Virus record (IMG/VR): IMGVR_UViG_3300007770_000007
Span: 13,336 to 77,335 of that record
Origin: a virus
Strand: one strand, 5' to 3'
DNA: 64,000 bases
Below the pieces are notes generated by a model. That model had not been told where the DNA came from, made no database searches, and worked only from the letters and a program-made list of their open reading frames with translations. The position numbers and the translations under genes are program-made. Positions 2,810 to 35,036 of this stretch are shown piece by piece. Within the stretch, counting starts at the first letter, position 1. Every line of letters starts with the position of its first letter.

Positions 2810-3124
2810 ATGCCGAAGTCAAAACCTTCTCACCGCCGCGTGGCTATGGCGAAGCGGCTGGCGCGAAGATGGATCAAGGCCAACGTGCGCCCCGAGTACC
2901 GGATCACCGTGTACATGGGTCCCAAGGGTCTTCGCAATCTTCCGGGACTCCTCCGTTCTTTCCGTGATGGCAAGATCAAGGTTGGATCTGTAGACCCTGT
3001 TCGCGATCTCGGAGTCAAAGCCGGGTTTGATCATGTTGAACTTTGGTCAGCTAACCGTGAAGGGCTTGTCGAGTTGGACGAGTGGCTTCAGGCGGTGGGC
3101 TGTGAAACAACTGGCGTTTGGTAG
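2810..3124 (+). CDS. Hypothetical protein (N-terminal basic helix RRVAMAKRLARRW)
   Basis: GGAGG RBS; downstream of a CGGTG-N7-TAT motif. Confidence 0.7.
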   Translation: MPKSKPSHRRVAMAKRLARRWIKANVRPEYRITVYMGPKGLRNLPGLLRSFRDGKIKVGSVDPVRDLGVKAGFDHVELWSANREGLVELDEWLQAVGCETTGVW

Positions 3125-3132
3125 GGGGGATC

Positions 3133-3561
3133 ATGGCTGCCGCATTGGTTCTTTCGGAGTTTAGTTACACGTCTGGGTCTGCTTCGGACCAGTACCTATT
3201 CACGGTCGTTTCCGACTCCCAAGGCAACCTTTCAGTGCGCGACATCCAGAATGCTTACGGCATGGTGGTAAGTCCGTACTCCCGTATCCCCAAATCCGTT
3301 GAAGACGACATTCATTCCGCAATCTCACAGGTGGAGGCGCTAATGGCTGCTACATCCGCAGTGAACGGCACTCTCACGTTCACTGATTCGCACGAAGAAA
3401 CCTTCACGTTTGTAGAGGCCATGACGGACGCGCACTACCGCGTCGTGCTTTCCAGTGACGCCTTTGTTCCGTTGCGGATTAGTGCCCAGACGACCACAAC
3501 TTTTACTGTCCAAGCCGGTGCCGACTTTTCAGGCACTGTGGGCTTCGACGTGTTCGTGTGA
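3133..3561 (+). CDS. Virion structural protein with C-terminal beta module
   Basis: ATG at 3133 after GGGGGA; Thr/Ser-rich; C-terminal module resembles that of 3570..5141. Confidence 0.6.
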   Translation: MAAALVLSEFSYTSGSASDQYLFTVVSDSQGNLSVRDIQNAYGMVVSPYSRIPKSVEDDIHSAISQVEALMAATSAVNGTLTFTDSHEETFTFVEAMTDAHYRVVLSSDAFVPLRISAQTTTTFTVQAGADFSGTVGFDVFV

Positions 3562-3569
3562 GGTAGAAG

Positions 3570-5141: not shown

Positions 5142-5150
5142 AGGTAAGCC

Positions 5151-6152: not shown

Positions 6153-6160
6153 GCCTTGTA

Positions 6161-6198: not shown

Positions 6199-7455
6199 GT
6201 GCCCATGCGCCCTGACCCAGCACGCATCGCGAAAGCCCATACCCGCAAGCAGCGGCTTGGTGCGTCTGCTGACGGCCAGAAGACGGCTTCCATGTCCCGC
6301 ACTGCTGGTGAGGTTCGCTTCATCAAGGACCGTGGCGGTGACAAGAACGAGTGGGGTTGGGGAAGCCCTGGTCCCAGCGAGCGCCAAATCACGTCCGACT
6401 TCGTGTTTGATCCCAAGTACCTGAAGCCCCTGGCAACGACGATGCGCTCTGCGCTTATGGCTCTGGGCCATGTTTCGTCTGCTCACGACCGCTTTCTCAA
6501 GATCAAGAGCCGCGACGTTAGCCCTGACGGCAGCCTTGGCGGTAAGGGGTACATCCAGAAAGTTTCCGAGATGCGTCGGCAGTTGATGAACTGTTCCGAG
6601 GCCCTGTCTGCTTTCACCGACACCATCTATGACGAGATGGCAGCCCCTCACTGGGATCCTGCCGAGGACACTCTTGATCCGCGTGATCGGGATGAGGTTC
6701 GGGAGATCGTTGAGGAAGCCGAAGAAATCCGAGAGGACCCCACCGGCTGGGCCGACGAGGAAGAGGAAGACGAGTTCGGCAAGACCGCTGGTACTTTGTC
6801 CTATCGGGGGGACACCCCGCTCGATAAAGCGTATGCGATGACGGATCTTCTCATTGAGCTTGGAAAAGACCTCCCCACCGGATCTTCCCGAAGCCGGGAG
6901 TTCAAAGCAGTCAAGACTGCCCTCCGAAGCCTGGAGGGGTTTGTGAAGGGCATTGGTTCGGACACTCCAAGGCCACGCGCAGCCCAGACGGTTCGCCGCA
7001 AGACGGCTGCATGGGCAGGCATCGACTACATGCGCGGAGATGACCGCTGGACTCTTGGCAAGGCGGTTGAGAGCCGTCGTGTTCGAGTCCCTTCTGGTTA
7101 CGAGTTGGTTTCAGAGCCGGGAAAGGTCGTGCTTTTCAACTGGGGCGTCTTGGACGAGGGGGCCACCGCAGAGTTTCGATTCATGCCCGATGGCACGAAC
7201 ATTCAGTTCATTATCGACGGGTATAACGACAAGCGTTCGCCCGGTTTGGTTCGGCACAGGTGGGTCGGCAACCCTGTCGATGACGCGGTCCTTATTGAAA
7301 AGCATATCAAGAAGTACATGCCTGCACTTGTGAAAGCAGTCTCGGACGACGAGGAGGACCTTCTTCGAGAAATCGAGAGGCGTCAGCGCATGGCAGGAAT
7401 CCCCGGAAGCACCGCCCGTGTGCTTGCACGGTTTATGGAGGTGAACGGTGAGTAG
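6199..7455 (+). CDS. Hypothetical multi-module protein, candidate head-internal protein
   Basis: AGGAG RBS; PDPARIAKAH at N-terminus, KTAS/RTAG/KTAG/KTAA motifs, C-terminal ARVLARF. Confidence 0.7.
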   Translation: MPMRPDPARIAKAHTRKQRLGASADGQKTASMSRTAGEVRFIKDRGGDKNEWGWGSPGPSERQITSDFVFDPKYLKPLATTMRSALMALGHVSSAHDRFLKIKSRDVSPDGSLGGKGYIQKVSEMRRQLMNCSEALSAFTDTIYDEMAAPHWDPAEDTLDPRDRDEVREIVEEAEEIREDPTGWADEEEEDEFGKTAGTLSYRGDTPLDKAYAMTDLLIELGKDLPTGSSRSREFKAVKTALRSLEGFVKGIGSDTPRPRAAQTVRRKTAAWAGIDYMRGDDRWTLGKAVESRRVRVPSGYELVSEPGKVVLFNWGVLDEGATAEFRFMPDGTNIQFIIDGYNDKRSPGLVRHRWVGNPVDDAVLIEKHIKKYMPALVKAVSDDEEDLLREIERRQRMAGIPGSTARVLARFMEVNGE

Positions 7456-9610
7456 CGACAAGCCCCTCGATGTTTTGGGGGAGAGTCACCTTCCGGCTGA
7501 CCTCCTCACCCCTACCCTTGGCTCCAACTACGGTATGCCTGGGTTTGAGGACATGCACTACAACCAAGGCGTCCTTGAAGGCGTCCTGGATCCCGAGTTG
7601 ATGCCTCCTCCCGCGTTGCCTACTGGGCTGGAGCGCGTTGCTGAATCAGACATGGGCGTCCAGGAGATGATGAAGGAGGCCGAGTTGGCCGACCTGTCTT
7701 GGCTTGCCGATGCAGAACAAGACCCCGAGCGTCTCCCCCAGAACCCGGTTGATTTGGGAATCCCGGAACTTGAGGAAGCCTGGGGCGTTGATCGCCGCAC
7801 TAACGGTATCCAGGTGTTCTCTACGGATCTTGCCCACGCCAAGGCGTCGGCCCCTGACACGCGCCTCCCCATGAATGAACGCGACTTGTCGGACATTCTG
7901 GTTACGGCCATGCGGCGCTCTGCGGCTGGTGAGGACATCAGCCTGATCATCGAACAGTCCCGAATCGCCGCTGGCGTGGATGCAGATCGAATCGAGAAGG
8001 GGCTTTCCATTATCCGCAGCGAGCATGGTCTTGCAGGAAAGGTCTTTGTTCGTGCCGCCGCATACCCCTCTTATGAAAAGGGGAAGTACCGCGACGAGAT
8101 TCTGAAGGCCGCCAAGGGAGCCGAGTACATCCTTGTCTCGGGCCAGGACTTTGGTTCTACTCATATCCAGAACGGTCGCTGCACTGTAACGGGCAAGAAG
8201 GCCGTCCTTGAGGTTCCTTGGAGCAAGGCCCTGTCTCACTACAAGCCTTTGTTGCTTGCTACGGGGCATCGGGTAGCTACGGACGTTCCAGCAAAGGATG
8301 CCCTCCGGGCCGCCTTTCTTGCACCGACCTCGTTGCCGGTTGCACGCGGTGAGCGTCTTCCTCGTTACAAGGCTGTATGCGATACGGTTTCTTCTGAAGA
8401 GGCTGCGGCAAGCCTGAAGGCCGCCGACAACACTCCCACGGAAGTCCAGGTGACAGACGCCGTGTTGAATCGACGGCTTCAACTCTGGAAGCAGAGCAAT
8501 ATGATTGACTCTGACTTGGTTGAGCAGATTCAGGCTGCCGATCTGACGCCGAACCAGAAGTTGGCCCGTGCTCTCGATGCGGTGAACGCTCGTCGTAACG
8601 GGACCTCTGGTTTCACGGGTGCCCCTAACACCGCCGTTGAGGCGGCCCAGAAGCGCCAGCATCTCCGTCTTGTCCGTAAGGACCACGCCAAAGAGGCTTC
8701 TGAAGCACGGCTCCGAGAAATCGTCGCTTTCCGAAACTCCGATGATCTGGACCAGCGCATCGCAAAGGTCATTGAGAAGATCGAGCAGGGCGCACGCGGT
8801 TCTTACCTCAAGTCCTTTATCAACAAGGTGATTCCGCAGAAGTTTGCTGCTGAAGCAGTGCGTCGGCTGCGTCCAACATTGGAAAAGACCGGTGCCCTCG
8901 AAGAAGAGAGCAAGGCCGCTTCCTATGATGGTCATGTTTACGAACGTGCCCCCGAGGTGCGGGAGGCTGTGGAGCTTTCTGATAAGGACGCGGCGCTCGC
9001 CAAGGCTGCTTCTGATGGTGATGTTTCTGTTTCGGAGATCAAGGGTGTCCTCAAGTGGGCCTCTCGTCATATGTCCCAAGGGTCTGCCGGAAGTGAGCTT
9101 ACTGAACTGCTTCGTCATCGTTTCTCGAACCGGATCCTCAAGTCTGCTTCGGGATTGATTCAGAGTATTCGCGACACCCACGAGGGCGCTGCTGGATTTC
9201 TCTACGTTGACTCCGAAGCCTACATGGCTCCCACAGGGGTGAAAGGTTGCGAGACAGGTGCCCTTCGTCATCGATCCAACCAGCTACCTGCTGTCCTGGC
9301 CAGTTCCCGGTGCCAAGGGTGTACCCGAGTTTGCACACTTTCCTGCGGCACGCGGAAGTGCAGCACCTACAACAAGGTGCTTCTGGAGCGTTCGGACCTT
9401 CCCGGAGACATCAAGTCCATCAAGAAGGCCAACATCACCGGGGCAGACCAGACGGATGCGGAAGGTATTGCTTCCCTGTTCGGCGCTACCTATGACCCGG
9501 ATGAATACAACCTTCGCAGTGCGGATTTCGAGGACGAGGTAGAACTGGCCCCGCTCCCCGAAAACGAGAAGATTGGTGAAATCGTCTTGGGTGGCTTCCT
9601 GTGGGAGTGA
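7448..9610 (+). CDS. Large hypothetical protein (Cys-containing; candidate prohead core protein)
   Basis: 720-aa ORF coupled to its neighbours in the head gene block. Confidence 0.65.
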   Translation: MSSDKPLDVLGESHLPADLLTPTLGSNYGMPGFEDMHYNQGVLEGVLDPELMPPPALPTGLERVAESDMGVQEMMKEAELADLSWLADAEQDPERLPQNPVDLGIPELEEAWGVDRRTNGIQVFSTDLAHAKASAPDTRLPMNERDLSDILVTAMRRSAAGEDISLIIEQSRIAAGVDADRIEKGLSIIRSEHGLAGKVFVRAAAYPSYEKGKYRDEILKAAKGAEYILVSGQDFGSTHIQNGRCTVTGKKAVLEVPWSKALSHYKPLLLATGHRVATDVPAKDALRAAFLAPTSLPVARGERLPRYKAVCDTVSSEEAAASLKAADNTPTEVQVTDAVLNRRLQLWKQSNMIDSDLVEQIQAADLTPNQKLARALDAVNARRNGTSGFTGAPNTAVEAAQKRQHLRLVRKDHAKEASEARLREIVAFRNSDDLDQRIAKVIEKIEQGARGSYLKSFINKVIPQKFAAEAVRRLRPTLEKTGALEEESKAASYDGHVYERAPEVREAVELSDKDAALAKAASDGDVSVSEIKGVLKWASRHMSQGSAGSELTELLRHRFSNRILKSASGLIQSIRDTHEGAAGFLYVDSEAYMAPTGVKGCETGALRHRSNQLPAVLASSRCQGCTRVCTLSCGTRKCSTYNKVLLERSDLPGDIKSIKKANITGADQTDAEGIASLFGATYDPDEYNLRSADFEDEVELAPLPENEKIGEIVLGGFLWE

Positions 9611-9613
9611 CCT

Positions 9614-12600
9614 GTGGCTCCTCGTCACCCAAATCCTGAAGCGGTAGCGACACTGAAGCAGGCCGAGATGTCCACAGAGGCATCGGTGGCCTTGATGAAG
9701 TGGCTCTCCCGAGTCACCCGAAAGGCCGGGGTAGCGCAGCACGTCTACGTCGTCGGCGGTGCCGTCAGGAACTTCCTGCTTGAGAAGCCCATCAAGGACA
9801 TAGACATGGTGGTGGATTCTCTCGCACTGCGCGGGAATCGTGACGCCGCTTGGGTGGCGCAGCAGGTAGCCCGTGCAATCCCCGCCCCTACCAAGGTGTG
9901 GACCGATAGCCTGATGGTTTCTCATATCACTGTGGAGGGTCCTTGGAGCCTTGACGGCCATCAGATGGAGGGGGAGGAGATCGAGATCGTCAACGCTCGC
10001 TTGGAGGAGTACGCGGTTGACCCCCAGACAGGTGAGTACACCGGACACAAGCCGGAACGGGTCGAACCCACCACGATGGAGATCGACATTTCTCGCCGCG
10101 AGTTCACGTTCAATACATTGATGTGGACGCTGCTGTCGCTCGCCAATGGCCCTGACAAGGCCGAAATCATTGACCTCACGGGGTGTGGTCTAAAGGATCT
10201 AAAAAACCGCGAGATGCGCTGCCCTGGCGACCCCGACGAGACATTCGCGCAGGACCCCACCCGGATCATCCGCACCATCAAGTTCGCCTTCAAGTACGGC
10301 ATGAAGCTGCCGCCCGACGTGAAGGCAGCAGCTATCCGGCAGGCCAAGGGACTCAAACGCATCCCTTCCAAGACCCAGAGCATTCTTCAGAAGATTGTGT
10401 TGGATAACCCCCAATACAAGAAAGCCCTTGATGTCATGGATCGCCTTGGCGTGAACGCAGTCATCAAGGAGATAATGCTGGAGAACAAGCCCTTTCGGTC
10501 CTTTATGGAGAGCCACGCCAGAAAGAAGGGTGTTGCTTACATGCTTGATCTGATGGACGTGGGCATCCCTGTAGGCGCTCCAATCTCTTTCCTTGATGCA
10601 GCGCAGCAGAAGCGTTTTCGGGAAGTAACGTCTGTTATGGATCGTGACGCCGCTTTGGATTTTTTGGGTATGTTGCGCCAGACGGGCAGTGCCTTGGGAG
10701 GGGCTACCCTGGCTTTGGCGCAAGAGCACGGCTATCGACAAAACGAAATGCGGGATTTTTCACCCGTCTTGAATAGGGTTGTGCGGGACCTTCTCCTCGA
10801 AGATCCTTCTTTGGCGGCTTCTTCATCGAGGCTCGTTCAGCGGGTTCGTCGGGAACTGCCTCGTCAACTGCCCCGACGGGCAAGCTCTGCTTTGGTTTAC
10901 GGCACCCCTTCGGATGCCGACCGCGCAACTATGGAAGCCCCCACTCCCATATTTCCCCTCGCGTTCGAGGATTTTCACCTGATCCCGCCCCCCGACCAGG
11001 AGGAAACCCTTGAGGAGCTTCAAGACCTACGCGAACTCGCTGAAGAACAGCGCCCGGAAGCTGAAGAGTTCATCAAGGAGTCTGATGGGGAGATTCTCCA
11101 TCTCTTTGATCGTCTGTGGCGCGATCATGGTGTCCGAGTCGATAAGAGGTGGATGCGAGAGATGGTCAAACAGGCGAAAACCCACGTCGCCAAGCTGAAG
11201 TGGCACTTCAATCGCCCACGTCCATATCAGGTAGGGGACGCTATCGGACAGCCCTTCGAGGCACTTGCTTCAGAAACGGCCCACTCCCCTTCGTACCCAA
11301 GCGGTCATGCCATCCAAGCGTTCCTCTTGGGAGAGGCATCAAGCCGCCTGGACCCCGAACATGCGGCTGAATACTTTGATTTGGTTGACCAGATTGCGTG
11401 GGGTCGGGCGCAAGCAGGCTACCACTGGCCCAGTGACATCCTCTACGGCGTTGAAGTTGCTGACCATATGGCTGACTTCATGGATGTTCCCGAGGCTTGG
11501 AGTCCTCGCGTGGCGCGGATCATGGAGAGGAGGGCTTCACACGCCCTACAGAGGCATCGCTGGGCCAAGACGTTCACCGTCAACAAGGGCGATCCTATCT
11601 GGTACGGGAAGTATAAGAACAAGCGGGGGATCATTGATGGGTTCAGCACCAACGAGAAGGGTGACGTGATCATCACCGTCGAACAGGTGCCTAATCCAAC
11701 TGGCCGCAAGCAGCCCAAAGAGTTGAAGCTGTTCCGGGTGCGCCCCCGAGAGGTGGAGGAGGGCAAGGAGGCAAGCCCCCGTCGCGTCGTAGCCAAGTAC
11801 AAGAGCAAGAAAGAGGTGCCCAAAGCAGACGGCAGCGGGACCACCACTGTTTACGAGTACGGCCCTCGGCAGGTAGCCCAACGCCATAAAGAAAAGGCCA
11901 AGAGATTGGAGGGGTTGAAGGCATCCCTTTCTGATTTGAGGGGTCAGGTTTCGGAGGACATGGTGTCAGACGACCCGGAGACGAGGCTTACGGCTTTGGC
12001 GGTGGCGTTGCTCGACAAGACTTATGAGCGCGTGGGTAACGAGAAATCCGCTGATGATCGTGGCCATTTTGGAATCACGACCTTGCGGGTCAGCCACCTG
12101 GACCTGAAGGACAAGAAAGCCACCTTTGAGTACGTTGGCAAGAGCGGGGTGAAGCAGAAGAAGGTTGTGACGGACCCTCAAATCATTGAGGTTCTCAAAG
12201 CGGCAGTGGACGGAAAAGAGGGTGACGAGCGCATTCTGTGCGACGGCGATGATTGTCAGATTCGAGCGCGGCACGTCAACGGTTACCTCAAGCCGTTTGA
12301 CATCACGGCCAAGGATCTTCGGGGGCTACATGCCAATGAGGAGATGCGTGTTCGGTTGAAGGATGTTCGCAAGAAGGGCGAGAGCCTTCCCCGAGGTCGA
12401 AAAGACCGAGACAAGATCCTAAAGGCAGAGTTCAAGGAAGCATTGGAGGCGGTTGCAGAGGCGGTGGGGCATCAGGCATCCACGCTCCGGTCCCAGTACC
12501 TCGTGCCAGGGCTGGAGGACTTCTACATGAAGGACGGGACTGTTATTGATGATTTGGCCAAGGCTGCCTCTCTGGGTCGGGATGCAGGCTTTCGTTCGTG

Positions 12601-14755
12601 GCTCATGGGGATCGTCAGTAAGTCCACGGTGGTCAAGGCGATCTTTGAGTGGGGTGAGCAAAAGCTGGACGGCCCAGCGGATCTTCCAGGAGGGTTGGTT
12701 CCCGAGGGCTACATCTGGAAGATGGGCGGTAGTTGGTACGCCAGCATTGGAGATGGTTTCCGGGTCCAGAAATACAGGAGCGAGCGCGAAGCTACCCGAG
12801 GGGTTCGGTTCTCGCGTGTGGCTCATACGCTTCTCCTGAAGCAAGCCACGAAGTCTGAAGCAGAGCGTGAAGAGGAAGAGGCCCAGCGACTTGTGCGTAA
12901 GTCCCCCAAGAAAAAGCCGCCTCGGGTGGACCTGGAACGCCGTCATGTCGAGGATTCGGATTCCGAAAGGGATCCCGATAAAGAGCAAGATCGGAAGGAT
13001 ACGTCCCACAACTTCAAGGACATCGCCGCCTCGATGGCCGCTCGGCGTGTAGCTTTTCGGTACAGGAAGGCCGAGGAGTTTACGGAGCAAGAGTGGAAGA
13101 CGTATAAATCCAAGCACCCAGGGGCCAATAAGGACGACCACACGATCCGGTCAATAGGTGAGGACGACGAGGATGGGGGTGCGTCCGAGGATACCTGGGA
13201 AGAACTTTCCTCTGATGAGCAAATGGATCTCTTGGCAGAGGGCGCAGGGACCGAGTTTGGGAAGATTCAGGACGAATACCCCAACACCACGATCACTGAA
13301 GAAGACGTCCAGGACATGATGATGGAGCAAGCTGCGGAAGGGGTGGACCCTTTCAGCCCAGCAGCGGCCAAGGAACGCAAGGACCAGATCAAGAGCCAAG
13401 CGGCGATGGATTCGGCGTCCAACAACCTCGTCCTCCTTACCCAGTCTTTTGGAGGTGACGGGTCCGAGAAGGTTGAATCAGCCCTTCAAGGCTTGAAGGG
13501 TGATGACCGGGCAACATTCCTTGAATCATATGAGAAGGCGCAGGAAACCGCCAAGGCGCGGGACTCTGCGGTTCGAGGCGACCCTGCCGCCCGTAAAGAG
13601 TTGCTCACCCTTGCCGAAAGCCTTGATGCGGTTCTGGCCTCCATCAAGGACGGAAACCCAGGCGTGATGGGAGAGGTGCTGGCGCTATTCGAGTATGCCT
13701 CGAAGGTTCTGTTCAATCCTTCCCTCATAGACCCCGCCAACCCAGTCTCCGATAGCCAGGGTGTCGTGACGGGCGACGACCTCGCGAAGTCGAAAAAGCG
13801 CAGCGCAACTCATGCTGCGAATGCCTTTGAACGCTTCAAGGAGGCAAGCCCCGAGGAACGCGCCCATTCCCGTGAAGCACTCGCCCAGCAGTTGGAGGGT
13901 CTTCCTGACGGGTCTGCCGCGAAGGTGGAGCTTCAAGGTGTTGTTTCAGGACTGCTTGCCGCGTCAGCTTTGCATGACGGGGAAGAGGCTACTGGCGTCG
14001 GACCTACGATGCAGCTTCTCGTCAAAGCACTCGATAAGGCTGGGGCAGCAGGTCCCGATGGGGCCTTGTTTGCACCGGTTGGGGGCGACCTTTCCACTCC
14101 AGAGGCGCAGGAGGGCATCCGGGCCGCCCTCACTGACGTGCTTGACGAAGACTGGGGAAGTTTGGTCGAGGAGGATGACCCCATCTTCCCTATCGCGGAG
14201 TTGTTGAGTGATGAATCCGCTGATTTGGGGATGGAGGATAAGCAGTTTCTTCGCACAATCATTGCTGATTATTTGACGGATGAAATCACGGTGGTGGAAG
14301 AGGCGACTCGCGAGGATCATCAAAAGGATGAGCCTACTACGGGCGACGTGAAGCAGAGCTTGAAGGAGCGCCGGAAGAAGGACAAGTCTCGGATGACGTC
14401 TGCCCTTCGGGATGCGAAAGGTCAGTTCTTGGACCAATCCGCTATTGACGAGGCGCAGGGTTCTGGGGCGAAGCAGGATGACGAAGACGCCGATACTTCT
14501 GCCGAGTCCGAGGGTGCAGGGTCGGAAGACACAGAAGAAAAGAAGGAGGAGGGTGCAGAGCGGAAGAAGGGATTCTTCGCCGCCCTTCTTGATGCCATCT
14601 TCCCTGATTCGAGAAAGGATAAATGGCAAGCCATCGTTGAAGGCGACGAGCCTGAATCTTCGACGGAAAAGACAGCCCTTGATCGTTATGATTTGCAGCC
14701 GTGGGACACTTCCAAACTTCCAACGGGAAACTCTGTCCCGTTAGATGCGCGGTAA
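9614..14755 (+). CDS. 1713-aa polyprotein: CCA-adding/poly(A) polymerase-type nucleotidyltransferase + PAP2 phosphatase/haloperoxidase + small SH3-like domain + DNA topoisomerase IB + acidic unknown domains
   Basis: NTase: VVGGAVRN…KDIDMV, RREFTFN, QDPTRIIR. PAP2: KWHFNRPRP, PSYPSGH, RAQAGYHWPSD. Topo IB: ERVGN, FGITTLRVSH, GKSGV, TAKDLR, VGHQASTLRSQY. Confidence 0.88.
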   Translation: MAPRHPNPEAVATLKQAEMSTEASVALMKWLSRVTRKAGVAQHVYVVGGAVRNFLLEKPIKDIDMVVDSLALRGNRDAAWVAQQVARAIPAPTKVWTDSLMVSHITVEGPWSLDGHQMEGEEIEIVNARLEEYAVDPQTGEYTGHKPERVEPTTMEIDISRREFTFNTLMWTLLSLANGPDKAEIIDLTGCGLKDLKNREMRCPGDPDETFAQDPTRIIRTIKFAFKYGMKLPPDVKAAAIRQAKGLKRIPSKTQSILQKIVLDNPQYKKALDVMDRLGVNAVIKEIMLENKPFRSFMESHARKKGVAYMLDLMDVGIPVGAPISFLDAAQQKRFREVTSVMDRDAALDFLGMLRQTGSALGGATLALAQEHGYRQNEMRDFSPVLNRVVRDLLLEDPSLAASSSRLVQRVRRELPRQLPRRASSALVYGTPSDADRATMEAPTPIFPLAFEDFHLIPPPDQEETLEELQDLRELAEEQRPEAEEFIKESDGEILHLFDRLWRDHGVRVDKRWMREMVKQAKTHVAKLKWHFNRPRPYQVGDAIGQPFEALASETAHSPSYPSGHAIQAFLLGEASSRLDPEHAAEYFDLVDQIAWGRAQAGYHWPSDILYGVEVADHMADFMDVPEAWSPRVARIMERRASHALQRHRWAKTFTVNKGDPIWYGKYKNKRGIIDGFSTNEKGDVIITVEQVPNPTGRKQPKELKLFRVRPREVEEGKEASPRRVVAKYKSKKEVPKADGSGTTTVYEYGPRQVAQRHKEKAKRLEGLKASLSDLRGQVSEDMVSDDPETRLTALAVALLDKTYERVGNEKSADDRGHFGITTLRVSHLDLKDKKATFEYVGKSGVKQKKVVTDPQIIEVLKAAVDGKEGDERILCDGDDCQIRARHVNGYLKPFDITAKDLRGLHANEEMRVRLKDVRKKGESLPRGRKDRDKILKAEFKEALEAVAEAVGHQASTLRSQYLVPGLEDFYMKDGTVIDDLAKAASLGRDAGFRSWLMGIVSKSTVVKAIFEWGEQKLDGPADLPGGLVPEGYIWKMGGSWYASIGDGFRVQKYRSEREATRGVRFSRVAHTLLLKQATKSEAEREEEEAQRLVRKSPKKKPPRVDLERRHVEDSDSERDPDKEQDRKDTSHNFKDIAASMAARRVAFRYRKAEEFTEQEWKTYKSKHPGANKDDHTIRSIGEDDEDGGASEDTWEELSSDEQMDLLAEGAGTEFGKIQDEYPNTTITEEDVQDMMMEQAAEGVDPFSPAAAKERKDQIKSQAAMDSASNNLVLLTQSFGGDGSEKVESALQGLKGDDRATFLESYEKAQETAKARDSAVRGDPAARKELLTLAESLDAVLASIKDGNPGVMGEVLALFEYASKVLFNPSLIDPANPVSDSQGVVTGDDLAKSKKRSATHAANAFERFKEASPEERAHSREALAQQLEGLPDGSAAKVELQGVVSGLLAASALHDGEEATGVGPTMQLLVKALDKAGAAGPDGALFAPVGGDLSTPEAQEGIRAALTDVLDEDWGSLVEEDDPIFPIAELLSDESADLGMEDKQFLRTIIADYLTDEITVVEEATREDHQKDEPTTGDVKQSLKERRKKDKSRMTSALRDAKGQFLDQSAIDEAQGSGAKQDDEDADTSAESEGAGSEDTEEKKEEGAERKKGFFAALLDAIFPDSRKDKWQAIVEGDEPESSTEKTALDRYDLQPWDTSKLPTGNSVPLDAR

Positions 14756-14764: not shown

Positions 14765-14807
14765 ACCTTCACCCTATGAGCGAGACTTGTGCTCGTGGAA
14801 TCCCTGT

Positions 14808-14844
14808 CCTTACAGGACCCCCTTACAGGACCCCCTTACTGGAG
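14808..14844 (+). repeat. 13-bp tandem repeat in a 5' leader, running into the RBS
   Basis: ccttacaggaccc x2, then ccttactggag. Confidence 0.8.
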
Positions 14845-14851
14845 AATCGTC

Positions 14852-15913
14852 ATGGCCGACAACCTTACCCGGAGCGGGGCACGGGCCTTCACCGAGACCC
14901 TTGACCGTATCGCTACCGCCGTTCAACACAATGCAGCCCTTTTGGGCCTCCCCTCGAACATTGCCACCGACTTCGCCTTCCGCTGCGATTTGGTTAGCGA
15001 TGCGGTGGAGAAGCAAGCGGCGGCCAACTTCCCTTTGAAGCAAGCTGACTTCAACGCCGATGAGATTGGCGAAGAGGTTCCGGGTCCTTTGGTTGATGAT
15101 CCTCCCAATGCACAGATCGATGAACACTTCACCCAAGAGAAGTTCCACGAGCTTACCGAGATGGCAGACGCCGAAGAAGCCGCCGACAAGCTGGCTTCTC
15201 TGATGGAAGAGGCAGACCGCGTGATGGAAGCCGCGATGCCCACCATCAACGTCCAAGGATTCCGGGGCTTTACGGATCAGGTTCGCCGTTTAGACGAACT
15301 CTCCACCGAAATCGAGATGCTTGAAGCAGAGCTTGAGGCCGCCACCAGCGGCCTTTTGTCGCGCAAGAAGGATCTCGACAAGGAGATGAAGGCCGCCGTT
15401 GAGGTTCTCAAGAAAGACTACAAGGAGAATCTTTCGGCACAGGGCAACGTCATCATCGAGCGCAAGACCGCTCTGGTGGACGCCCAGGCAAGGTTGGCAG
15501 TCGTTGCTCGCAGGCGCACTCCGCAGAAGGTCCGGGATGAACTCCTGGCCGCTCTTGCCGAGGAGTACGGTGAGAGTATTCGTCAGCGCCTTCCTGAACT
15601 GGAGAACGCACTGCGCGAAGAAAAGAAGACTATGGCTGTCGCCTTCAAGGGATTCGAGCTTGAGATGCGTACCGCGTCCGTTGCTGACAAGAACGCTGGT
15701 GTCCTCGACAAGCTGGTTCGCTTCCGCGAATGGCTCGTTGGTGGCCTGAAGCGCATTGTCGGTATGGCAGAGCAGGCCACTCGTCTTTTCAAGGGCGTGG
15801 GCCGCAAGATGGAGAAGGACACCTCCATGTTCCTGCGGGAACTCGACCAGTTCGAGTCCGAGATGGGCAAGGCTGCCACCGAAGTCCACGGTTTCGATTT
15901 CTTTTCCGAGTAG
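14852..15913 (+). CDS. Coiled-coil hypothetical protein (candidate prohead core/internal protein)
   Basis: Likely start MADNLTRSG at 14852 after GGAG; KQAD, RTAS, KNAG, KAAT motifs. Confidence 0.7.
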   Translation: MADNLTRSGARAFTETLDRIATAVQHNAALLGLPSNIATDFAFRCDLVSDAVEKQAAANFPLKQADFNADEIGEEVPGPLVDDPPNAQIDEHFTQEKFHELTEMADAEEAADKLASLMEEADRVMEAAMPTINVQGFRGFTDQVRRLDELSTEIEMLEAELEAATSGLLSRKKDLDKEMKAAVEVLKKDYKENLSAQGNVIIERKTALVDAQARLAVVARRRTPQKVRDELLAALAEEYGESIRQRLPELENALREEKKTMAVAFKGFELEMRTASVADKNAGVLDKLVRFREWLVGGLKRIVGMAEQATRLFKGVGRKMEKDTSMFLRELDQFESEMGKAATEVHGFDFFSE

Positions 15914-21337: not shown

Positions 21338-21943
21338 ATGTCTGATACCCCCGCCCGTCACCGCTTGATTCGCCTCGCCTCTACGTTGCCCAAGGGCAGC
21401 ACGGAGCGTGGAGAGATCCTCTCCATTCTTGCCGCTGACGCTGACCACCTGAAGAAGCACCAGTTCGACAGCGAGAACAACCCCAATCCCAAGGGGAATG
21501 ACAAGGACGGTGACGGCGAGACTAACGAGCCGAGTCCCGTGAAGGACAAGAAGGCTGCCCCTTGTGATGACGCCCCCGCTCCCTTCAAAGAGCAGTGCTT
21601 GAAGAAGGTTGAAGAAGGGAAGAAGAATGAGGACAAGAAGGAAGCCGGTGGTGGCTGCGACTCTCCCAAACTTCCCGACGCCCTGAAGGCACAGTGCAAG
21701 GAGAAGGAGAAGGAAGGCGACAAAGAGGCCAAGGAAAAGTACCCCTGGGATGATTGTATTGCCGATCAGATGAAGGAATACGGCAGCAAGGAAGTTGCTG
21801 AAAAGGTTTGCGGTAAGATCCGGGCCGAGAGCCAGGGCCTCAAGTCCGCTGCTGATTTCCGCAGAAGCCTGATTCGGATGGCTGCCGAGATGCCCAAGGG
21901 CGATGCTTCCCGTAAGAAGCTCCTCACACTTCTCAAGTCCTAA
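21338..21943 (+). CDS. Charged hypothetical protein with terminal repeats (candidate head-internal protein)
   Basis: RLIRLASTLPKGSTERGEILSIL at the N-terminus and SLIRMAAEMPKGDASRKKLLTLL at the C-terminus; paired Cys motifs. Confidence 0.7.
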   Translation: MSDTPARHRLIRLASTLPKGSTERGEILSILAADADHLKKHQFDSENNPNPKGNDKDGDGETNEPSPVKDKKAAPCDDAPAPFKEQCLKKVEEGKKNEDKKEAGGGCDSPKLPDALKAQCKEKEKEGDKEAKEKYPWDDCIADQMKEYGSKEVAEKVCGKIRAESQGLKSAADFRRSLIRMAAEMPKGDASRKKLLTLLKS

Positions 21944-22572
21944 TGATTCAGCCATCGCCTTCAAGAGTAGCTGCCCGTTATGCGGCATCCCCTCCCACGC
22001 TTCGGCAAGTGAAAGCCCTTTTGAGGCGCACGGGAATCGAAGGTGAGTTGTCAGGGCGTGGGCGCGATTGGTCCGTGGAGTTGCCTGATAGCCGCACTTC
22101 TGACGCCTTCCAGAAAGCCTACCAAAAGGCTTTTCGTGCTGGGGTTGGGGGTTACCGTACTGGCTACGGTGCCTGGGTTATGCGCCCAGGCTATGGCGCA
22201 GACCCCCATGACTTCAACGACCCTGCTTCCCGGCACCACTACGCCGCGCTCCCAGAGGAGCCTGTGGTCGGAGACATTCTCTATTCCAACTGGGGATATG
22301 ACCAGACCAACATCGACTACTACCAGATCATCAAGGCGACCCCAAAGCAGGTCGTCATAAAGCAGCTTCTCAAGAAGGTTGTGAGCACGGGCCGCACTGA
22401 TGAGAAGGTCATCCCCCTCAAGGGGAAGTTCGATCCAAGAGGGAAGGCTCTCCGTAGAAAGTGGCGTCCCGGCTACAGCGACGGCATTGCTGTGAGCATC
22501 AACTCCTACTCCAGCGCGTATAGTTGGGATGGTCGTCCTAAAAGCCAAACAATGGCCGGGTTCGGCCACTGA
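21943..22572 (+). CDS. Two-module hypothetical protein with N-terminal PSPSRVAARY
   Basis: Coupled ORF; second module VGDILYSNWGYDQTNIDYYQI. Confidence 0.7.
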   Translation: MIQPSPSRVAARYAASPPTLRQVKALLRRTGIEGELSGRGRDWSVELPDSRTSDAFQKAYQKAFRAGVGGYRTGYGAWVMRPGYGADPHDFNDPASRHHYAALPEEPVVGDILYSNWGYDQTNIDYYQIIKATPKQVVIKQLLKKVVSTGRTDEKVIPLKGKFDPRGKALRRKWRPGYSDGIAVSINSYSSAYSWDGRPKSQTMAGFGH

Positions 22573-32181: not shown

Positions 32182-32200
32182 TATTTACGGAGGGCATGGC

Positions 32201-33157
32201 ATGATGGCAGCAGGTACGTTTGAGAAAGGGGATTTCAGGTCTTACAGGGCGATCACAAAGATTCACCTGGGAGCACTTGAGTTCGACATTCAGGAAGGCG
32301 AGACCGTTCTCTTCGACGGGACCACACTCAAACGTGGCGACGGGGAGGATGAAATCCACACTCTGCGTGCAGCTATCAAGGTGGGATGGCTTGTTCCTGA
32401 AGACTCCGAGGAAACCTCGTACACCCCCAAACCCGCTGACATCAAGATCCACGAAGCGGCCCCTACCAGTTCGGAAAGTCGAGAGGCTCGCGCCCCCCTC
32501 ACAATCCAGGATGAGGAGCGAGATGTAGGCACTGTTGCCAGTCGCGTCAGCACTGGCGCTCCCACAGGCGCGGTCGAGAAGGATGCAGACGACGCAGCCG
32601 TTGTGGGCCGTATGAAGAGGAGTGCCAAGTCCGGTCCCATTCGCATTGACGGGGAAGACCGCAAGGTGGTCAAGACCCTCGACAACGACTCTCGGGACAT
32701 TGTTGAGCCTGCCCGTGTGGCTACAGGGGACGTGGACGAAGCGATGGCAGGGGATGAGCTTGTGGACATCCTTCCTGATGCTGCGAACGCGGACGTTCCC
32801 CCCAAGGGCGTCTCCGGGGAAGGTCGGGGTGATGAGTCTGAACTACGCGCCAAGGCCGTTACTGCCAAGGGTTCCACTACTGTCGGCACTGCTGATGACG
32901 GTGAGGTGGTCGCCTCCATCGCCTCGAAGAAGGCACTTTCCGCAGACGGGCTTTCCCCTGAAATCATCGAAGCAAAACTTGAGGTAGTCCGTCAGTTTGT
33001 TCCGGGGTTCCAGTGGGACATGAACATGCAGTGGGCCAAGCGAGCCAAGCTGGCCGTGTCCAAGTACGGGGACAACCTTCCCGTCATCAACGCCATCCTC
33101 TCGATTGAGACAGAAGCGGTGCGGAAGGACATTATGAAGCGGCTCTACAAGGATTAG
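32201..33157 (+). CDS. Hypothetical protein
   Basis: Long ORF; GGAGG upstream of MMAAGTF. Confidence 0.65.
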   Translation: MMAAGTFEKGDFRSYRAITKIHLGALEFDIQEGETVLFDGTTLKRGDGEDEIHTLRAAIKVGWLVPEDSEETSYTPKPADIKIHEAAPTSSESREARAPLTIQDEERDVGTVASRVSTGAPTGAVEKDADDAAVVGRMKRSAKSGPIRIDGEDRKVVKTLDNDSRDIVEPARVATGDVDEAMAGDELVDILPDAANADVPPKGVSGEGRGDESELRAKAVTAKGSTTVGTADDGEVVASIASKKALSADGLSPEIIEAKLEVVRQFVPGFQWDMNMQWAKRAKLAVSKYGDNLPVINAILSIETEAVRKDIMKRLYKD

Positions 33158-33227
33158 GCTGCGGTACATTCCCGATAAAGCCCGGATGGTTGAGTGCCGT
33201 CTGGGCTTTATTGCTTCTGGAGGCTTT

Positions 33228-35036
33228 GTGCCGCGTCCATCCCCTGCTCGTGTAGCTGCCCGATATGCGGATTTGAACCCGCCGTTGGGCTATCCGGGCG
33301 GCCCGTGCCACGTCATGCAGCGCATCCGAGATGAGGTGAGGAACCCCAAACTCCAGGAGAAGCTCGTTGATTCAGTGGAAGACGGCGACAAGCTGTCTAA
33401 CCCTGAAGCAGCGGCCATCTATGATCTGGAAGTGGACCGTGGGGCTGGCAGGTTCAAGAAACTCCGCATCACTCCCCATGCCCAGTACCGGATGGACCAA
33501 CGGGGAATCATCGTCAACGAACTCCGCATCGCCCTCAAGTCTTTCCAGAAAGCATGGAACGATGACAAGTCTCGTCAGGGGTATCGCTGGCGTAACTGGG
33601 AAGAGGACATGGCAAGAGGCCAGCCGATTCGTTGGGAAGATCCCCAAATCAAGCTGGCGGTGGTGTTTACCGCCAACCGTGATGTCGCTACGCTTGTTAC
33701 CGCTTATTGGGAAGGGCAGCCTGACCCTCGTCCAGAGGATGAGGACTCCTGTTCGGTTCGGGTTGGCTTGAAGATTGCCCCTACGCCGGGGGTTCAGACT
33801 TATGTCACCGAAGACTCTGCGAAGGGGATTCCTCCCAGTAACGATAGCAGGGAGCCTGATTCAGCAGCCCCTCTTCCTGGAAGCGCCGTTCCTGGAGGGG
33901 CTGGTCGAGAAATCGGCAAGTTCGAGTACAACACTCCCGATTCGAGTTCGGACATAAAGCCTCGCACGTTGTCGGAGCCGGGAGAGCAGCGAGGCCATCC
34001 CACTAATGTCCTCGACAACTACATCACCCGACGCACCTTTACCTCTGCTCTTGTAGAGGCGTGGGAGGCAGGGCCTCCGGGTCCGAGGCGGCAACATCGC
34101 CAGAAGCCTGCGGAGCGCAGGCGGCAGAACCGGGAGGAGTACCGCCCCAACCGCATGATAAAGAGGCGCATGGCGCTGAAGCGGTATCACCAGTTCTGTA
34201 AGCGAAACCGTCAGTGCAAGATGAAAAGAGAGTTGTATAGGAAACACCCGCAGCGGTACAAGCGCAGAGCGCCGCGCTCGGTGAAGAAACTCCCCAGGCT
34301 TCTCAAAGAGGGCGGGGACATCATCCTTTACGATCAGTGGAACCCTGCCAACAACGAAATCAAACAGCCCGGTCCCGACGTGAACTATCGCGCAGAGGGT
34401 CCGACGACTTACGAGTTCAGGCCGGATGAGCGAGAGGGAGTTCCTCCAGGACACGCTCCTCCAAGTAACCAGACCGAAGATGTTCCTCCTGCTTCAAGCA
34501 GGGTCATTCCCGATGAGATGAAGGAAAACCTCCGGGACAACCTGACTTATGTGCAGGCGGCACCCAACTTGAGAGTGGCAGCTACCATAGGTCAAGTCCT
34601 CTCGAAGTGTGATTCCACGATCTTGAATCGCGCCAAAGCAGTCCGAATCAGCCCTTACCGGTTCAATCCGGCGAAGGGTTTTTGGAGCTTCAAGGCTGCC
34701 GGGAGCCAGGGCACCTACATTGTGCGTGTCAAGGGAGTCCGTCGAGGCAACGTGAAGAACTTGGACAAAGCCCAGATCAAAGTGTCTTGCTCTTGTCCTT
34801 TCTTTCGGTGGCAAGGACCAGAACACTGGGCCAAGCAAGGACAGTATCTTTACGGTCGTCCTGTAGGTACTGCCTCCAATCCCAAGGTCATGGACCCGAA
34901 AGGCCACCACGGAGCGTGCAAGCATGTAGTTGCTGCTTTGAGCAAGGCGAGGGGCTGGCGGTTCAGTTCTGAAGGCACCCTCTGGGACCAAGATGCAGTG
35001 GTTATCTTGGACGAGGATGCCCTGTTGAGTGGGTAA
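33228..35036 (+). CDS. Multi-module protein: N-terminal PSPARVAARY, DUF4258-like domain, Arg-rich segment, C-terminal SWIM Zn finger
   Basis: GTG start after GGAGG; ITPHAQYRMDQRGI; VSCSCPFF…GACKHVVAAL. Confidence 0.7.
   Translation: MPRPSPARVAARYADLNPPLGYPGGPCHVMQRIRDEVRNPKLQEKLVDSVEDGDKLSNPEAAAIYDLEVDRGAGRFKKLRITPHAQYRMDQRGIIVNELRIALKSFQKAWNDDKSRQGYRWRNWEEDMARGQPIRWEDPQIKLAVVFTANRDVATLVTAYWEGQPDPRPEDEDSCSVRVGLKIAPTPGVQTYVTEDSAKGIPPSNDSREPDSAAPLPGSAVPGGAGREIGKFEYNTPDSSSDIKPRTLSEPGEQRGHPTNVLDNYITRRTFTSALVEAWEAGPPGPRRQHRQKPAERRRQNREEYRPNRMIKRRMALKRYHQFCKRNRQCKMKRELYRKHPQRYKRRAPRSVKKLPRLLKEGGDIILYDQWNPANNEIKQPGPDVNYRAEGPTTYEFRPDEREGVPPGHAPPSNQTEDVPPASSRVIPDEMKENLRDNLTYVQAAPNLRVAATIGQVLSKCDSTILNRAKAVRISPYRFNPAKGFWSFKAAGSQGTYIVRVKGVRRGNVKNLDKAQIKVSCSCPFFRWQGPEHWAKQGQYLYGRPVGTASNPKVMDPKGHHGACKHVVAALSKARGWRFSSEGTLWDQDAVVILDEDALLSG

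What the first reader, a model, noticed from the sequence alone, without database searches (positions are those of the whole stretch)
2810..35036. Candidate capsid cargo system: a shared 'RVAARY' helix plus K/R-x-A processing sites on many unrelated proteins
Seen: a short basic amphipathic motif recurs at termini or inter-domain linkers of otherwise unrelated ORFs around the head genes. Examples: PSPSRVAARY (21943), PSPARVAARY (33228), PDPARIAKAH and TARVLARF (both ends of 6199), AKRLARRW (2810), SAERVAEAA (15923), and SPRVARIM, SPRRVVAKY, SRVAHTL, AARRVAFRY (linkers of the 9614 polyprotein). It is often next to K/R-x-A-[S/A/G/D/T] (KTAS, RTAG, RRAS, KEAS, KAAS, KQAT, KSAS). The same short motif marks the N-terminal segment of the prohead protease (RTAS), the end of its catalytic domain (KAAS) and the scaffold (KQAS, KKAS, KQAD, KSAG). 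A second repeat, LIR[LM]A..[LM]PKG…R..[IL]L.[IL]L, brackets 21338. Established: T4 internal proteins carry a capsid-targeting sequence removed by gp21, phiKZ gp175 cleaves many head proteins at a short motif, and encapsulins use cargo-loading peptides. Inference: a modular tag-and-cleave system that loads diverse enzymes into the prohead and releases them as separate domains for ejection.
Basis: partly seen in the sequence, partly recalled or inferred. Interest (0 to 1): 0.88.

Follow-up and report, generated by a model that had tools for sequence, protein, structure and literature searches.

The report
Portable head-loading tag on jumbo-phage proteins
A widespread group of uncultured giant phages puts one short peptide (…S-P-S-R-V-A-x-R-Y…) on the start, end or domain joints of dozens of unrelated enzymes. 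A second short motif (K/R-x-A-S) looks like the cutting site of the head protease. Together they most likely load enzymes into the capsid and cut them free, though no experiment shows this yet.

Summary
The window is part of a phage-G-like jumbo phage (MCP 40% identical to phage G gp27). A 15-residue scoring matrix for [KRM]-x-[AP]-S-[AP]-x-R-V-A-x-R-[YFWH]-[AL] finds 106 copies in four related genomes, where about 3 are expected. They sit on 74 proteins in 41 unrelated groups: 8 copies on 6 proteins in this contig, 37 and 51 copies in two 290-kb relatives. Copies lie at N-termini (Arg at residue 7-9), at C-termini and at the joints of multi-enzyme "polyvalent" proteins. All synonymous codons are used, so selection acts on the peptide.

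Only the S form of the "K/R-x-A" motif is enriched. It is enriched 10-fold in scaffold orthologues and 6-fold in protease orthologues, at three conserved inter-domain positions. It directly precedes 41% of C-terminal tags (2% in controls) but does not follow N-terminal tags.

My best reading (0.55) is a capsid-loading tag combined with a prohead-protease site, like T4's CTS/gp21 but with different sequences and a different phage lineage. The receptor, the packaging and the cleavage are all inferred.

The scan has noted analogous tags with other sequences in other jumbo phages.

The parts
2822..2872 (+). Tandem tag KPSHRRVAMAKRLARRW at the N-terminus of the 104-aa basic protein 2810-3124
   Evidence: Matrix scores 20.0 and 23.4. 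Conserved in G001 117393 and G003 272399. Coordinates.
6208..6240 (+). N-terminal tag RPDPARIAKAH of gene 6199-7455
   Evidence: Score 21.9. 86 of 120 homologues carry it with Arg at residue 7-9. AF2 helix 7-20 followed by a disordered linker.
6280..6309 (+). KTAS...RTAG, candidate processing sites just before the conserved core (EVRF...) of the 6199 family
   Evidence: [KR][TV]AG-EVRF is present in nearly all homologues, 7-25 residues after the tag. The model has pLDDT below 50 for residues 26-47.
6778..6792 (+). GKTAG, second nearly invariant site at the C-terminal edge of the 6199-family core
   Evidence: K195 and A197 are at least 90% conserved and the consensus reads GKTAS. pLDDT is below 50 for residues 196-205.
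7405..7434 (+). Weak C-terminal tag GSTARVLARF of 6199
   Evidence: Score 6.5, below threshold. Homologues have SADRVLARF or SSSRVAARF at the same place, and those pass. AF2 helix 405-415.
7448..9610 (+). 720-aa head-cluster protein rich in [KR]xAS (5 sites, nt 8690-9151)
   Evidence: 5 sites against 0.9 expected. The G002 orthologue has 9.
9614..14755 (+). 1713-aa polyvalent protein: CCA/polyA-type nucleotidyltransferase, PAP2 and topoisomerase IB domains plus an acidic tail. Tags at nt 11765-11800 (KEAS+PRRVVAKY) and 13037-13063 (AARRVAFRY). A weak tag plus RRAS at 11501-11539. Further sites at 10874-10885, 12560-12571 and 13838-13849.
   Evidence: Pfam domains at residues 44-202, 527-613 and 756-957. 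Tags and sites fall between them.
14789..15913 (+). 374-aa head-cluster protein with two [KR]xAS sites (15188-15199, 15668-15679)
   Evidence: 2 sites against 0.3 expected. Orthologues hold 62 against 34.9. A promoter-like box lies at 14750.
16205..16240 (+). KSAS + AERVAEAA, a site plus tag inside gene 15923-16489, just upstream of the protease
   Evidence: Score 20.9. Orthologues read PSRVAQAF and SARVANNY.
16492..17904 (+). Prohead protease (470 aa) with [KR]xAS at 16567-16578, 17365-17376, 17644-17655 and 17869-17880
   Evidence: phrog_18299. The fold matches T4 gp21 5JBL with Z 5.9. The first three sites are conserved in 15-18 of 25 orthologues. They lie in or next to low-pLDDT segments.
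17924..19246 (+). Acidic scaffold-like protein (440 aa) with KQAS 17957-17968, KKAS 18578-18589 and KKAS 19127-19138
   Evidence: It lies between the protease and MCP genes. Only its ends are conserved. Orthologues hold 235 sites against 23.8 expected, most of them just before the conserved C-terminal peptide.
19375..20124 (+). 249-aa protein in the position of the phage G decoration gene; it has no [KR]xAS
   Evidence: 48-57% conserved. 0 sites against 3.7 expected over 40 orthologues, which is weak evidence. Gene order in phage G.
20140..21012 (+). Major capsid protein (HK97 fold), hyper-conserved; a candidate receptor
   Evidence: phrog_2522. Matches PDB 6WKK, phage G gp27, at E 2.6e-66. 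89-92% identical across genomes whose other proteins are 25-62% identical.
21365..21430 (+). Second tag type, N-terminal copy (LIRLASTLPKGSTERGEILSIL) of gene 21338-21943
21869..21934 (+). Second tag type, C-terminal copy (LIRMAAEMPKGDASRKKLLTLL) of gene 21338-21943
21949..21981 (+). N-terminal tag QPSPSRVAARY of gene 21943-22572
   Evidence: Highest score in the window, 34.2. Coordinates.
33228..33266 (+). Probable true start (GTG 33228, with GGAGG 4 nt upstream) and N-terminal tag MPRPSPARVAARY of the 602-aa protein ending at 35036
   Evidence: DNA read. Score 33.1. This start puts the Arg at residue 8, as in the other N-terminal tags.
33162..33176 (+). CGGTA-N7-KAT promoter-like box. Others lie at 6161, 14750 and 21290, before tagged or head genes.
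   Evidence: 10 matches in the window against 1.29 expected.

Best explanation
The window belongs to an abundant, uncultured clade of phage-G-related jumbo phages that uses two short peptide signals on its late proteins.

Signal 1 has the consensus [KRM]-x-[AP]-S-[AP]-x-R-V-A-x-R-[YFWH]-[AL]. It is an N-capped amphipathic helix on a flexible linker. It occurs at the extreme N-terminus, at the C-terminus, or between modules of polyvalent enzyme proteins. I infer that it docks these proteins inside the assembling prohead. The receptor is unknown. The candidates are the hyper-conserved MCP inner face, the conserved ends of the scaffold, and the clade-specific C-terminal domain of the protease.

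Signal 2, [KR]-x-A-S, is the probable cleavage motif of the gp21-fold prohead protease. It would cut the scaffold, trim the protease at three inter-domain positions, separate the modules of polyproteins, and detach C-terminal tags.

The cargo is of the kind predicted to be injected with the DNA to counter host defences. It includes nucleotidyltransferase, PAP2, topoisomerase IB, ADP-ribosyltransferase, HAD, 2H RNA-repair and NUDIX-like domains.

Shown here: the motifs, their enrichment, their positions and their conservation. Inferred: docking, cleavage, packaging and ejection.
For: Tag enrichment and spread:
- About 100-fold enriched.
- 106 matrix hits on 74 proteins in 41 groups, where about 3 are expected by chance.
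- 87 hits against 1 in shuffles in 80 further contigs.
- Also present in the published 485-kb phage LR745208.

The tag as a peptide signal:
- All synonymous codons are used at the motif positions.
- N-terminal copies have a fixed position, and the other copies lie at C-termini and inside multi-domain proteins.
- Segments bounded by tags are separate genes in other genomes.
- In the 6199 family the tag is kept in 86 of 120 homologues while the linker varies from 7 to more than 60 residues.
- In the AF2 model the tags are isolated helices beside linkers with pLDDT below 50.

The cargo: it carries polyvalent-protein domains, a class predicted to be head-packaged (PMC5512222).

Link to the head:
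- The protease of relatives carries the motif after its catalytic domain.
- Head-cluster genes 6199 and 15923 are tagged in all four genomes.
- Tagged genes share the CGGTA-N7-KAT box with head and tail genes.

The [KR]xAS site:
- Enriched 9.9x in scaffold orthologues and 6.1x in protease orthologues.
- Three positions in the protease are conserved.
- It is enriched in Tunturi_5 gp332 and gp328 and in the tail of phage G gp19, phages that have a homologous protease.
- It ends within 4 residues upstream of 41% of C-terminal tags and 23% of internal tags, against 2% at control positions.
Against: - There are no virion proteomics, cleavage data or complex structures.
- No isolate of the clade is known.
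- Tagged genes are spread over the genome, not only near the head genes.
- N-terminal tags have no adjacent cleavage site, so their release is unexplained.
- The matrix itself favours A-S at positions -4 and -3, so the adjacency statistic is partly circular.
- The orthologue counts for the scaffold and protease are not independent events.
- The absence of sites from the MCP (0 against 8.1 expected) amounts to a single observation.
- Tunturi_5 has the same MCP and protease families but no tag in its head region.
Confidence: 0.55

Rival explanations
1. The RVA peptide is not a loading signal. It is an extended recognition or recruitment element (an exosite motif) for the prohead protease, marking where and what to process. 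Entry into the head would depend on something else.
For: The tag core R-V-A-[A/S] itself fits [KR]-x-A-[SA]. Protease autoprocessing sites read RVAS in 5-9 of 25 orthologues. Tags lie at module joints. The clade-specific C-terminal domain of the protease co-occurs with the tag.
Against: Position +3 of the tag is A or S in only about half of the copies. Scaffold sites lack the R-Y part. Cutting 9 residues off an N-terminus, or 10-15 off a C-terminus, has no evident purpose without a targeting role. The peptide is predicted helical, whereas protease substrates bind in extended form (my own knowledge).
Confidence: 0.15
2. The tag docks proteins to a hub outside the capsid. The hub could be a phage or host factor in the infected cell, such as a chaperone, the polymerase, a replication or assembly compartment, or a modifying enzyme acting on the conserved Ser.
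For: Tagged genes are dispersed over 290-kb genomes. No receptor has been identified. A second, different tag (LIRLAS...) exists on another set of proteins, so more than one destination is possible.
Against: The head protease and the head-cluster families 6199 and 15923 carry the tag. The tag abuts the motif that is enriched in the scaffold and protease. The cargo domains are those of injected polyvalent proteins. Tagged genes share a promoter-like box with structural genes.
Confidence: 0.15
3. The motif is a linker or fusion scar that spread with a shuffling cassette and persists by descent, with no targeting or cleavage function of its own.
For: Several internal copies keep a Met at -6 or -7, like former start codons. 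Modules are shuffled at these points.
Against: The peptide is conserved between genomes of 38% and 62% GC with every synonymous codon in use. It is kept while the adjacent linkers vary freely in length and sequence. The flanking positions -4 to -2, +4 and +6 also carry information.
Confidence: 0.05

Closest known systems
Phage T4 capsid-targeting sequence (CTS) of IPI-III and Alt, removed by the prohead protease gp21
   Same: A short shared peptide on unrelated proteins that end up inside the head. N-terminal copies are about 10 residues long. An ADP-ribosyltransferase is among the cargo. The protease has the gp21 fold (Z 5.9 to 5JBL). Cleavage motifs also riddle the scaffold.
   Different: The sequences are unrelated (S-P-x-R-V-A-x-R-Y rather than MKTYQEFIAE, which I quote from memory). 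The candidate cleavage motif is [KR]xAS, not (L/I)xE. Tags also occur at C-termini and between domains. N-terminal tags are not followed by a site. The lineage is phage-G-like with a 290-aa MCP, not T4-like.
Propeptide processing of head and ejection proteins in phiKZ-like giant phages (201phi2-1, SPN3US gp245)
   Same: Jumbo phages in which many head-internal proteins are cut by the prohead protease at a short motif (abstracts of PMC10052503 and PMC7411985).
   Different: Those phages use S/A/G-x-E sites and long propeptides (my own knowledge). No short portable helix shared by dozens of proteins has been described for them. The MCP and protease lineages also differ.
Polyvalent proteins of phages and conjugative elements (Iyer et al. 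2017, PMC5512222)
   Same: Multi-enzyme polypeptides (ART-PolyVal, HAD_SAK_1, 2H, nucleotidyltransferase) encoded among late genes and predicted to be packaged and injected.
   Different: That work proposes processing by embedded metallopeptidase domains and describes no linear tag. Here the joints carry a portable peptide plus a prohead-protease-like site, and single-domain proteins carry the same peptide.
Encapsulin cargo-loading peptides and domains, and microcompartment encapsulation peptides
   Same: Short conserved motifs on flexible linkers, at either terminus, that bind the inner face of an HK97-fold shell (PMC10836720).
   Different: Those are cellular compartments without a portal, a protease or DNA. 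The motifs differ in sequence. Binding of this tag to the MCP is untested.

Membership tests
T4-type CTS / gp21 system | One short peptide shared by otherwise unrelated head-internal proteins, at the N-terminus | tested here: met
   N-terminal copies have Arg at residue 7-9 on many unrelated proteins. Whether these proteins are in the head is not known.
T4-type CTS / gp21 system | The CTS ends in the protease motif (L/I)-x-E and is cut off | tested here: not met
   The tags contain no L/I-x-E. A [KR]xA[SG] site within 30 residues downstream of N-terminal tags occurs in 16%, against 9% at control positions.
T4-type CTS / gp21 system | Prohead serine protease of the gp21/assemblin fold | tested here: inconclusive
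   The best and only domain-wide match is T4 gp21 5JBL, with Z 5.9, rmsd 3.5 A and 123 residues aligned. Foldseek gives E 0.1. There is no Pfam hit.
T4-type CTS / gp21 system | Tagged proteins are found in proheads and virions and are ejected | not testable with these tools
   No isolate and no proteome of this clade is available.
Polyvalent proteins (Iyer et al. 2017) | Two or more effector-type domains in one polypeptide | tested here: met
   9614 carries PolyA_pol, PAP2 and Topoisom_I. Relatives carry PolyA_pol with HAD_SAK_1 and 2_5_RNA_ligase2, and ART-PolyVal.
Polyvalent proteins (Iyer et al. 2017) | Encoded among late or packaging genes of a phage | tested here: met
   9614-14755 lies 1.7 kb upstream of the protease-scaffold-MCP genes.
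Polyvalent proteins (Iyer et al. 2017) | An embedded processing peptidase (MPTase) domain | tested here: inconclusive
   Pfam found none in the 20 or so tagged proteins scanned. One protein has Peptidase_C39_2. Remote homologues are not excluded.
Encapsulin cargo-loading peptide | An HK97-fold shell without portal, tail or genome packaging, with cargo encoded beside the shell gene | tested here: not met
   This is a tailed phage: homologues of the tail sheath, tail terminator and protease are present.
Encapsulin cargo-loading peptide | The peptide binds a pocket on the inner face of the shell protein | not testable with these tools
   No complex prediction is available. The only hint is the 89-92% identity of the MCP.
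phiKZ-like propeptide processing | Cleavage after S/A/G-x-E by a gp175/gp245-type protease | tested here: not met
   The motif enriched in the scaffold and protease here is [KR]xAS. The S/A/G-x-E consensus is from my own knowledge.

The most novel reading that the evidence does not exclude
A single docking pocket on the inner face of the major capsid protein reads the S-P-x-R-V-A-x-R-Y helix on about 10% of the phage's proteins. Because dozens of cargo proteins depend on that one pocket, both partners are frozen. This would explain why the MCP stays about 90% identical across genomes that differ from 38% to 62% GC and share only 25-60% identity elsewhere. It would be a phage counterpart of encapsulin cargo loading, and a simple code for packing chosen proteins into a jumbo capsid.
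Probability: 0.25. Interest if true: 0.8.

Novelty: new variant of a known kind. Interest (0 to 1): 0.66.

Why it matters
How jumbo phages select the many non-structural proteins they carry in the head is known in detail only for T4. This result offers a short, explicit and testable address code, together with a candidate protease motif, for a very abundant environmental clade: 583 IMG/VR contigs carry its MCP. It allows the injected enzyme arsenal of that clade to be predicted from sequence alone. It also links polyvalent proteins to head maturation, and may explain an unusually frozen capsid protein. If the tag works when moved to another protein, it would be a tool for loading proteins into large capsids.

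Tried and rejected
- Loose regular expressions over all six frames of the contig did not separate coding from non-coding frames. Only the extended motif and the related genomes gave a clear signal.
- Chance or composition: rejected.
- A DNA-level repeat or regulatory element: rejected, because every synonymous codon is used.
- A known domain covering the tag: Pfam and PHROGs gave nothing on the small tagged proteins.
- The broad K/R-x-A-[A/G/D/T] class: not enriched.
- A cleavage site after N-terminal tags: no general excess.
- Clustering of tagged genes around the MCP: not seen, since hit density is similar genome-wide.
- The tag in Tunturi_5: absent from its head region. Phage G was scanned only for [KR]xAS in its head region, not for the tag.
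- Foldseek on the protease model: no hit at E ≤ 0.001.
- Atlas look-up of 3570-5141: only weak beta-helix leads. The portal was not identified.
- Phage G virion proteomics (PMC12484599): a tryptic search only, so no cleavage-site information.
- Literature searches found no description of this motif.


Full report
WHAT THE WINDOW IS

The 64-kb window is part of a 77-kb virus contig. Its head module has these genes:
- a prohead protease at 16492-17904 (phrog_18299);
- a very acidic scaffold-like protein at 17924-19246;
- a 249-aa protein at 19375-20124;
- a 290-aa HK97-fold major capsid protein (MCP) at 20140-21012 (phrog_2522).

The MCP is 40% identical to Bacillus phage G gp27, whose structure is solved as 6WKK (E 2.6e-66). 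It is 49% identical to the MCP of Tunturiibacter phage Tunturi_5 and 88% identical to that of the published 485-kb uncultured phage LR745208. In IMG/VR, 583 contigs encode this MCP; the 80 best kept are 89-100% identical, and some contigs reach 312 kb. I fetched three of them whole: G001 (288 kb, 62% GC), G002 (312 kb, terminal repeats, 38% GC) and G003 (297 kb, 60% GC). Tail sheath, tail terminator and other virion genes lie further along the window.

CHECKING THE OBSERVATION

In this contig alone the evidence is thin and post hoc: 5 matches to a fitted pattern, against 0.1 expected. The relatives settle the matter.
- S[APS].[RK][VI]A..[YFHW] occurs 17 times in G001 and 21 times in G003, against 0.14 and 0.08 in residue shuffles. 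It is almost absent from the non-coding frames.
- I refined a 15-position scoring matrix iteratively. With a threshold that lets about 3 shuffled hits through in 293,000 residues, it finds 106 copies: 8 here, 37 in G001, 10 in G002 and 51 in G003.
- The copies lie on 74 proteins. With the tags masked, these fall into 41 single-linkage groups.
- The 80 MCP-centred contigs give 87 hits, against 1 in shuffles.
- LR745208 has 9 hits in the 41 kb around its MCP.

The consensus is [KRM]-x-[AP]-S-[AP]-x-R-V-A-[AS]-R-[YFWH]-[AL]. The flanking positions carry information of their own. Arg, Val, Ala and Ser in the motif use all their synonymous codons within each genome. The peptide also survives a shift from 38% to 62% GC. 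Selection therefore acts on the protein, not on a DNA element.

Six window proteins pass the threshold: 2810 (tandem copy), 6199, 9614 (residues 724 and 1145), 15923, 21943 and 33186. Three quoted copies do not pass: TARVLARF, SPRVARIM and SRVAHTL. Homologues of 6199 show that the first of these is a true, decayed C-terminal tag.

ANATOMY OF THE TAG

N-terminal copies are stereotyped. They read M-x-x-P-S-x-x-R-V-A with the Arg at residue 7-9. A GGAGG lies 4 nt upstream of it and a promoter-like box lies at 33162.

C-terminal copies end 6-15 residues before the stop codon. Internal copies sit in large multi-domain proteins, up to five per protein.

Segments bounded by tags correspond to whole separate genes, or to protein ends, in other genomes. 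Several internal copies keep a Met at -6 or -7, like former start codons.

The 6199 family shows the behaviour of a tethered linear motif.
- Of 120 homologues, 86 keep the N-terminal tag and 36 have a C-terminal one.
- The spacer to the conserved core varies from 7 to more than 60 residues.
- The core (residues 37-194) is bracketed by the nearly invariant [KR][TV]AG-EVRF and GKTA[SG].
- In an AlphaFold2 model built on 52 sequences, the two tags are isolated helices (7-20 and 405-415). The core is confident. The segments holding the bracketing sites (26-47 and 196-205) have pLDDT below 50.

WHAT IS TAGGED

Here, and in the relatives scanned, the tagged proteins carry these Pfam domains:
- PolyA_pol-type nucleotidyltransferase, PAP2 and topoisomerase IB;
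- HAD_SAK_1 and 2_5_RNA_ligase2;
- ART-PolyVal (twice);
- Peptidase_C39_2;
- weak NUDIX and DUF4258 matches.

This is the domain repertoire of "polyvalent proteins". Iyer et al. predicted that these are packaged in phage heads and injected. That paper describes no linear tag (PMC5512222).

In the window, tags and [KR]xAS sites lie between the Pfam domains of the 1713-aa protein. The clamp loader, ligase, kinase, tail sheath and other tail proteins of the window are untagged.

A promoter-like box, CGGTA-N7-KAT, was noted by earlier readers of this genome. It is enriched (10 matches against 1.29 expected). It precedes the tagged genes 6199, 21338/21943 and 33228, and also the head gene 14789 and late-cluster genes at 35673 and 36479.

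Tagged genes are nevertheless spread across the large genomes, not confined to the head cluster.

THE K/R-x-A MOTIF

[KR]xA[GDT] is not enriched. [KR]xAS is enriched about 2-fold against shuffles and 1.4-1.8-fold against a Markov expectation, in all four genomes.

The excess is concentrated.
- Scaffold orthologues hold 235 sites against 23.8 expected, mostly K-K-A-S just before the conserved C-terminal peptide.
- Protease orthologues hold 68 against 11.2.
- In the protease, three positions are conserved in 15-18 of 25 orthologues although the sequence around them varies: after the first ~28 residues, after the catalytic domain, and at the start of the C-terminal domain. The first two lie in low-confidence segments of the model.
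- In the window the richest proteins are 7448 (5 against 0.9), the protease (4 against 0.5), the scaffold (3 against 0.5), 9614 (5 against 1.6) and 14789 (2 against 0.3).
- The MCP and the 19375 family have none. These orthologues are so alike that this amounts to one weak observation each.
- Tunturi_5 and phage G have a homologous protease. In Tunturi_5, gp332 (in the scaffold position) has 4 sites against 0.5 and gp328 ("DNA ejection protein") has 5 against 0.9. In phage G, the tail of protease gp19 has 2 against 0.24.

This is the pattern expected of a prohead-protease cleavage motif. No cleavage has been measured.

The protease catalytic domain has the fold of T4 gp21 only weakly: Z 5.9, rmsd 3.5 A, 123 residues aligned. 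It is the single domain-wide hit, and Foldseek gives E 0.1.

HOW THE TWO SIGNALS RELATE

A [KR]xA[SG] site ends within 4 residues upstream of 41% of C-terminal tags and 23% of internal tags, against 2% at random positions in the same proteins. Examples are RRAS-AS-RVALRF and KTAS-RVASRY. Part of this is circular, because the matrix itself rewards A-S at -4 and -3.

N-terminal tags prefer P at -4. They show no excess of sites downstream (16% against 9%). "Tag-and-cleave" therefore fits C-terminal and internal copies and the 6199 family, but not N-terminal tags in general.

Scaffold sites lack the R-Y part, and only about half of the tags have A or S at +3. The tag is therefore more than a cleavage site.

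MOST LIKELY MECHANISM AND RIVALS

I take the tag to be a docking helix that brings late-made enzymes into the assembling prohead. I take [KR]xAS to be where the protease then cuts the scaffold, itself, the polyprotein joints and the C-terminal tags. Confidence is 0.55.

The receptor is unknown. There are three candidates.
- The MCP. It is 89-92% identical between genomes whose other shared proteins are 25-62% identical, the protease 44-59% and the scaffold ends 37-49%.
- The conserved ends of the scaffold.
- The C-terminal helical domain of the protease. Tunturi_5 (287 aa) and phage G (300 aa) lack it, as Tunturi_5 lacks the tag in its head region.

The rivals are:
- a protease recruitment element without a loading role (0.15);
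- docking to a hub outside the capsid (0.15);
- a functionless fusion scar (0.05).

Chance and a DNA-level repeat are excluded.

COMPARISON AND NOVELTY

Functionally the closest system is the T4 CTS with gp21. The sequences, the candidate cleavage motif, the positional freedom of the tag and the phage lineage all differ. The defining (L/I)xE feature is not met, so this is not a member of that family.

It overlaps with polyvalent proteins in its cargo, and with encapsulin cargo-loading peptides in its logic (PMC10836720).

I found no description of this motif in the literature.

Earlier notes of this scan report analogous tags of other sequences, mostly in T4-like jumbo phages. Those are unchecked leads, not evidence. 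They suggest that the theme recurs.

I class this as a new variant of a known kind.

Noticed in passing
window 20140-21012: The MCP is 89-92% identical between genomes of 38%, 57%, 60% and 62% GC. Their other shared proteins are 25-62% identical. This is unusually strong constraint on a capsid protein.
   Followed up: partly
window 21365-21430 and 21869-21934; G001 and G003 (L098-L129): A second portable peptide of about 30 residues (...T-A-x-D-R-x-x-L-I-R-L-A-S-x-L-P-x-G-S-x-E-R-x-x-I-L) sits at the N- or C-termini of other, mostly different proteins: 2 copies here, 5 in G001, 11 in G003 and none in G002. It contains an R-L-A-S.
   Followed up: partly
window 6161, 14750, 21290, 28279, 33162, 35649, 36415, 40576 (+); 46260, 60771 (-): CGGTA-N7-KAT occurs 10 times against 1.29 expected, always just upstream of a gene start in the head, tail or tagged gene set. 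It is a likely late-promoter element.
   Followed up: partly
window 17600-17904: The protease has a C-terminal helical domain of about 100 residues (373-463) and an acidic linker. The homologous proteases of Tunturi_5 (287 aa) and phage G (300 aa) lack both.
   Followed up: partly
L047:4879-7671, L052:4978-7659; G002 173915-176743 (L090): In some relatives the 15923-like gene is fused to the protease gene, or forms the C-terminal part of a 942-aa protein. Gene fusion and fission are common in this head cluster.
   Followed up: no
G001 73840-80232, G003 190585-195144 and 170287-172839: Several internal tags in giant proteins keep a Met at position -6 or -7 (KMASASRVASRF, RMASSVRVALRF). These may be scars of gene fusion or internal translation starts.
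   Followed up: no
window 9614-14755 and 14789-15913: The 1713-aa protein 9614 and the neighbouring gene 14789 fall in one homology cluster with 69 proteins of related contigs, which suggests a shared or duplicated module.
   Followed up: no
window 3570-5141: A 523-aa protein, 52-58% conserved in the clade, with no family hit. The Atlas gives only weak beta-helix or tail-fibre-like leads (scores under 0.8). The portal gene of this phage was not identified.
   Followed up: partly
L130 (Tunturi_5 gp328, gp332) and L132 (phage G gp19): K-x-A-S is also over-represented in the scaffold-position protein and the 'DNA ejection protein' of Tunturi_5, and in the C-terminal tail of the phage G protease. 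The cleavage specificity may be older than the tag.
   Followed up: partly
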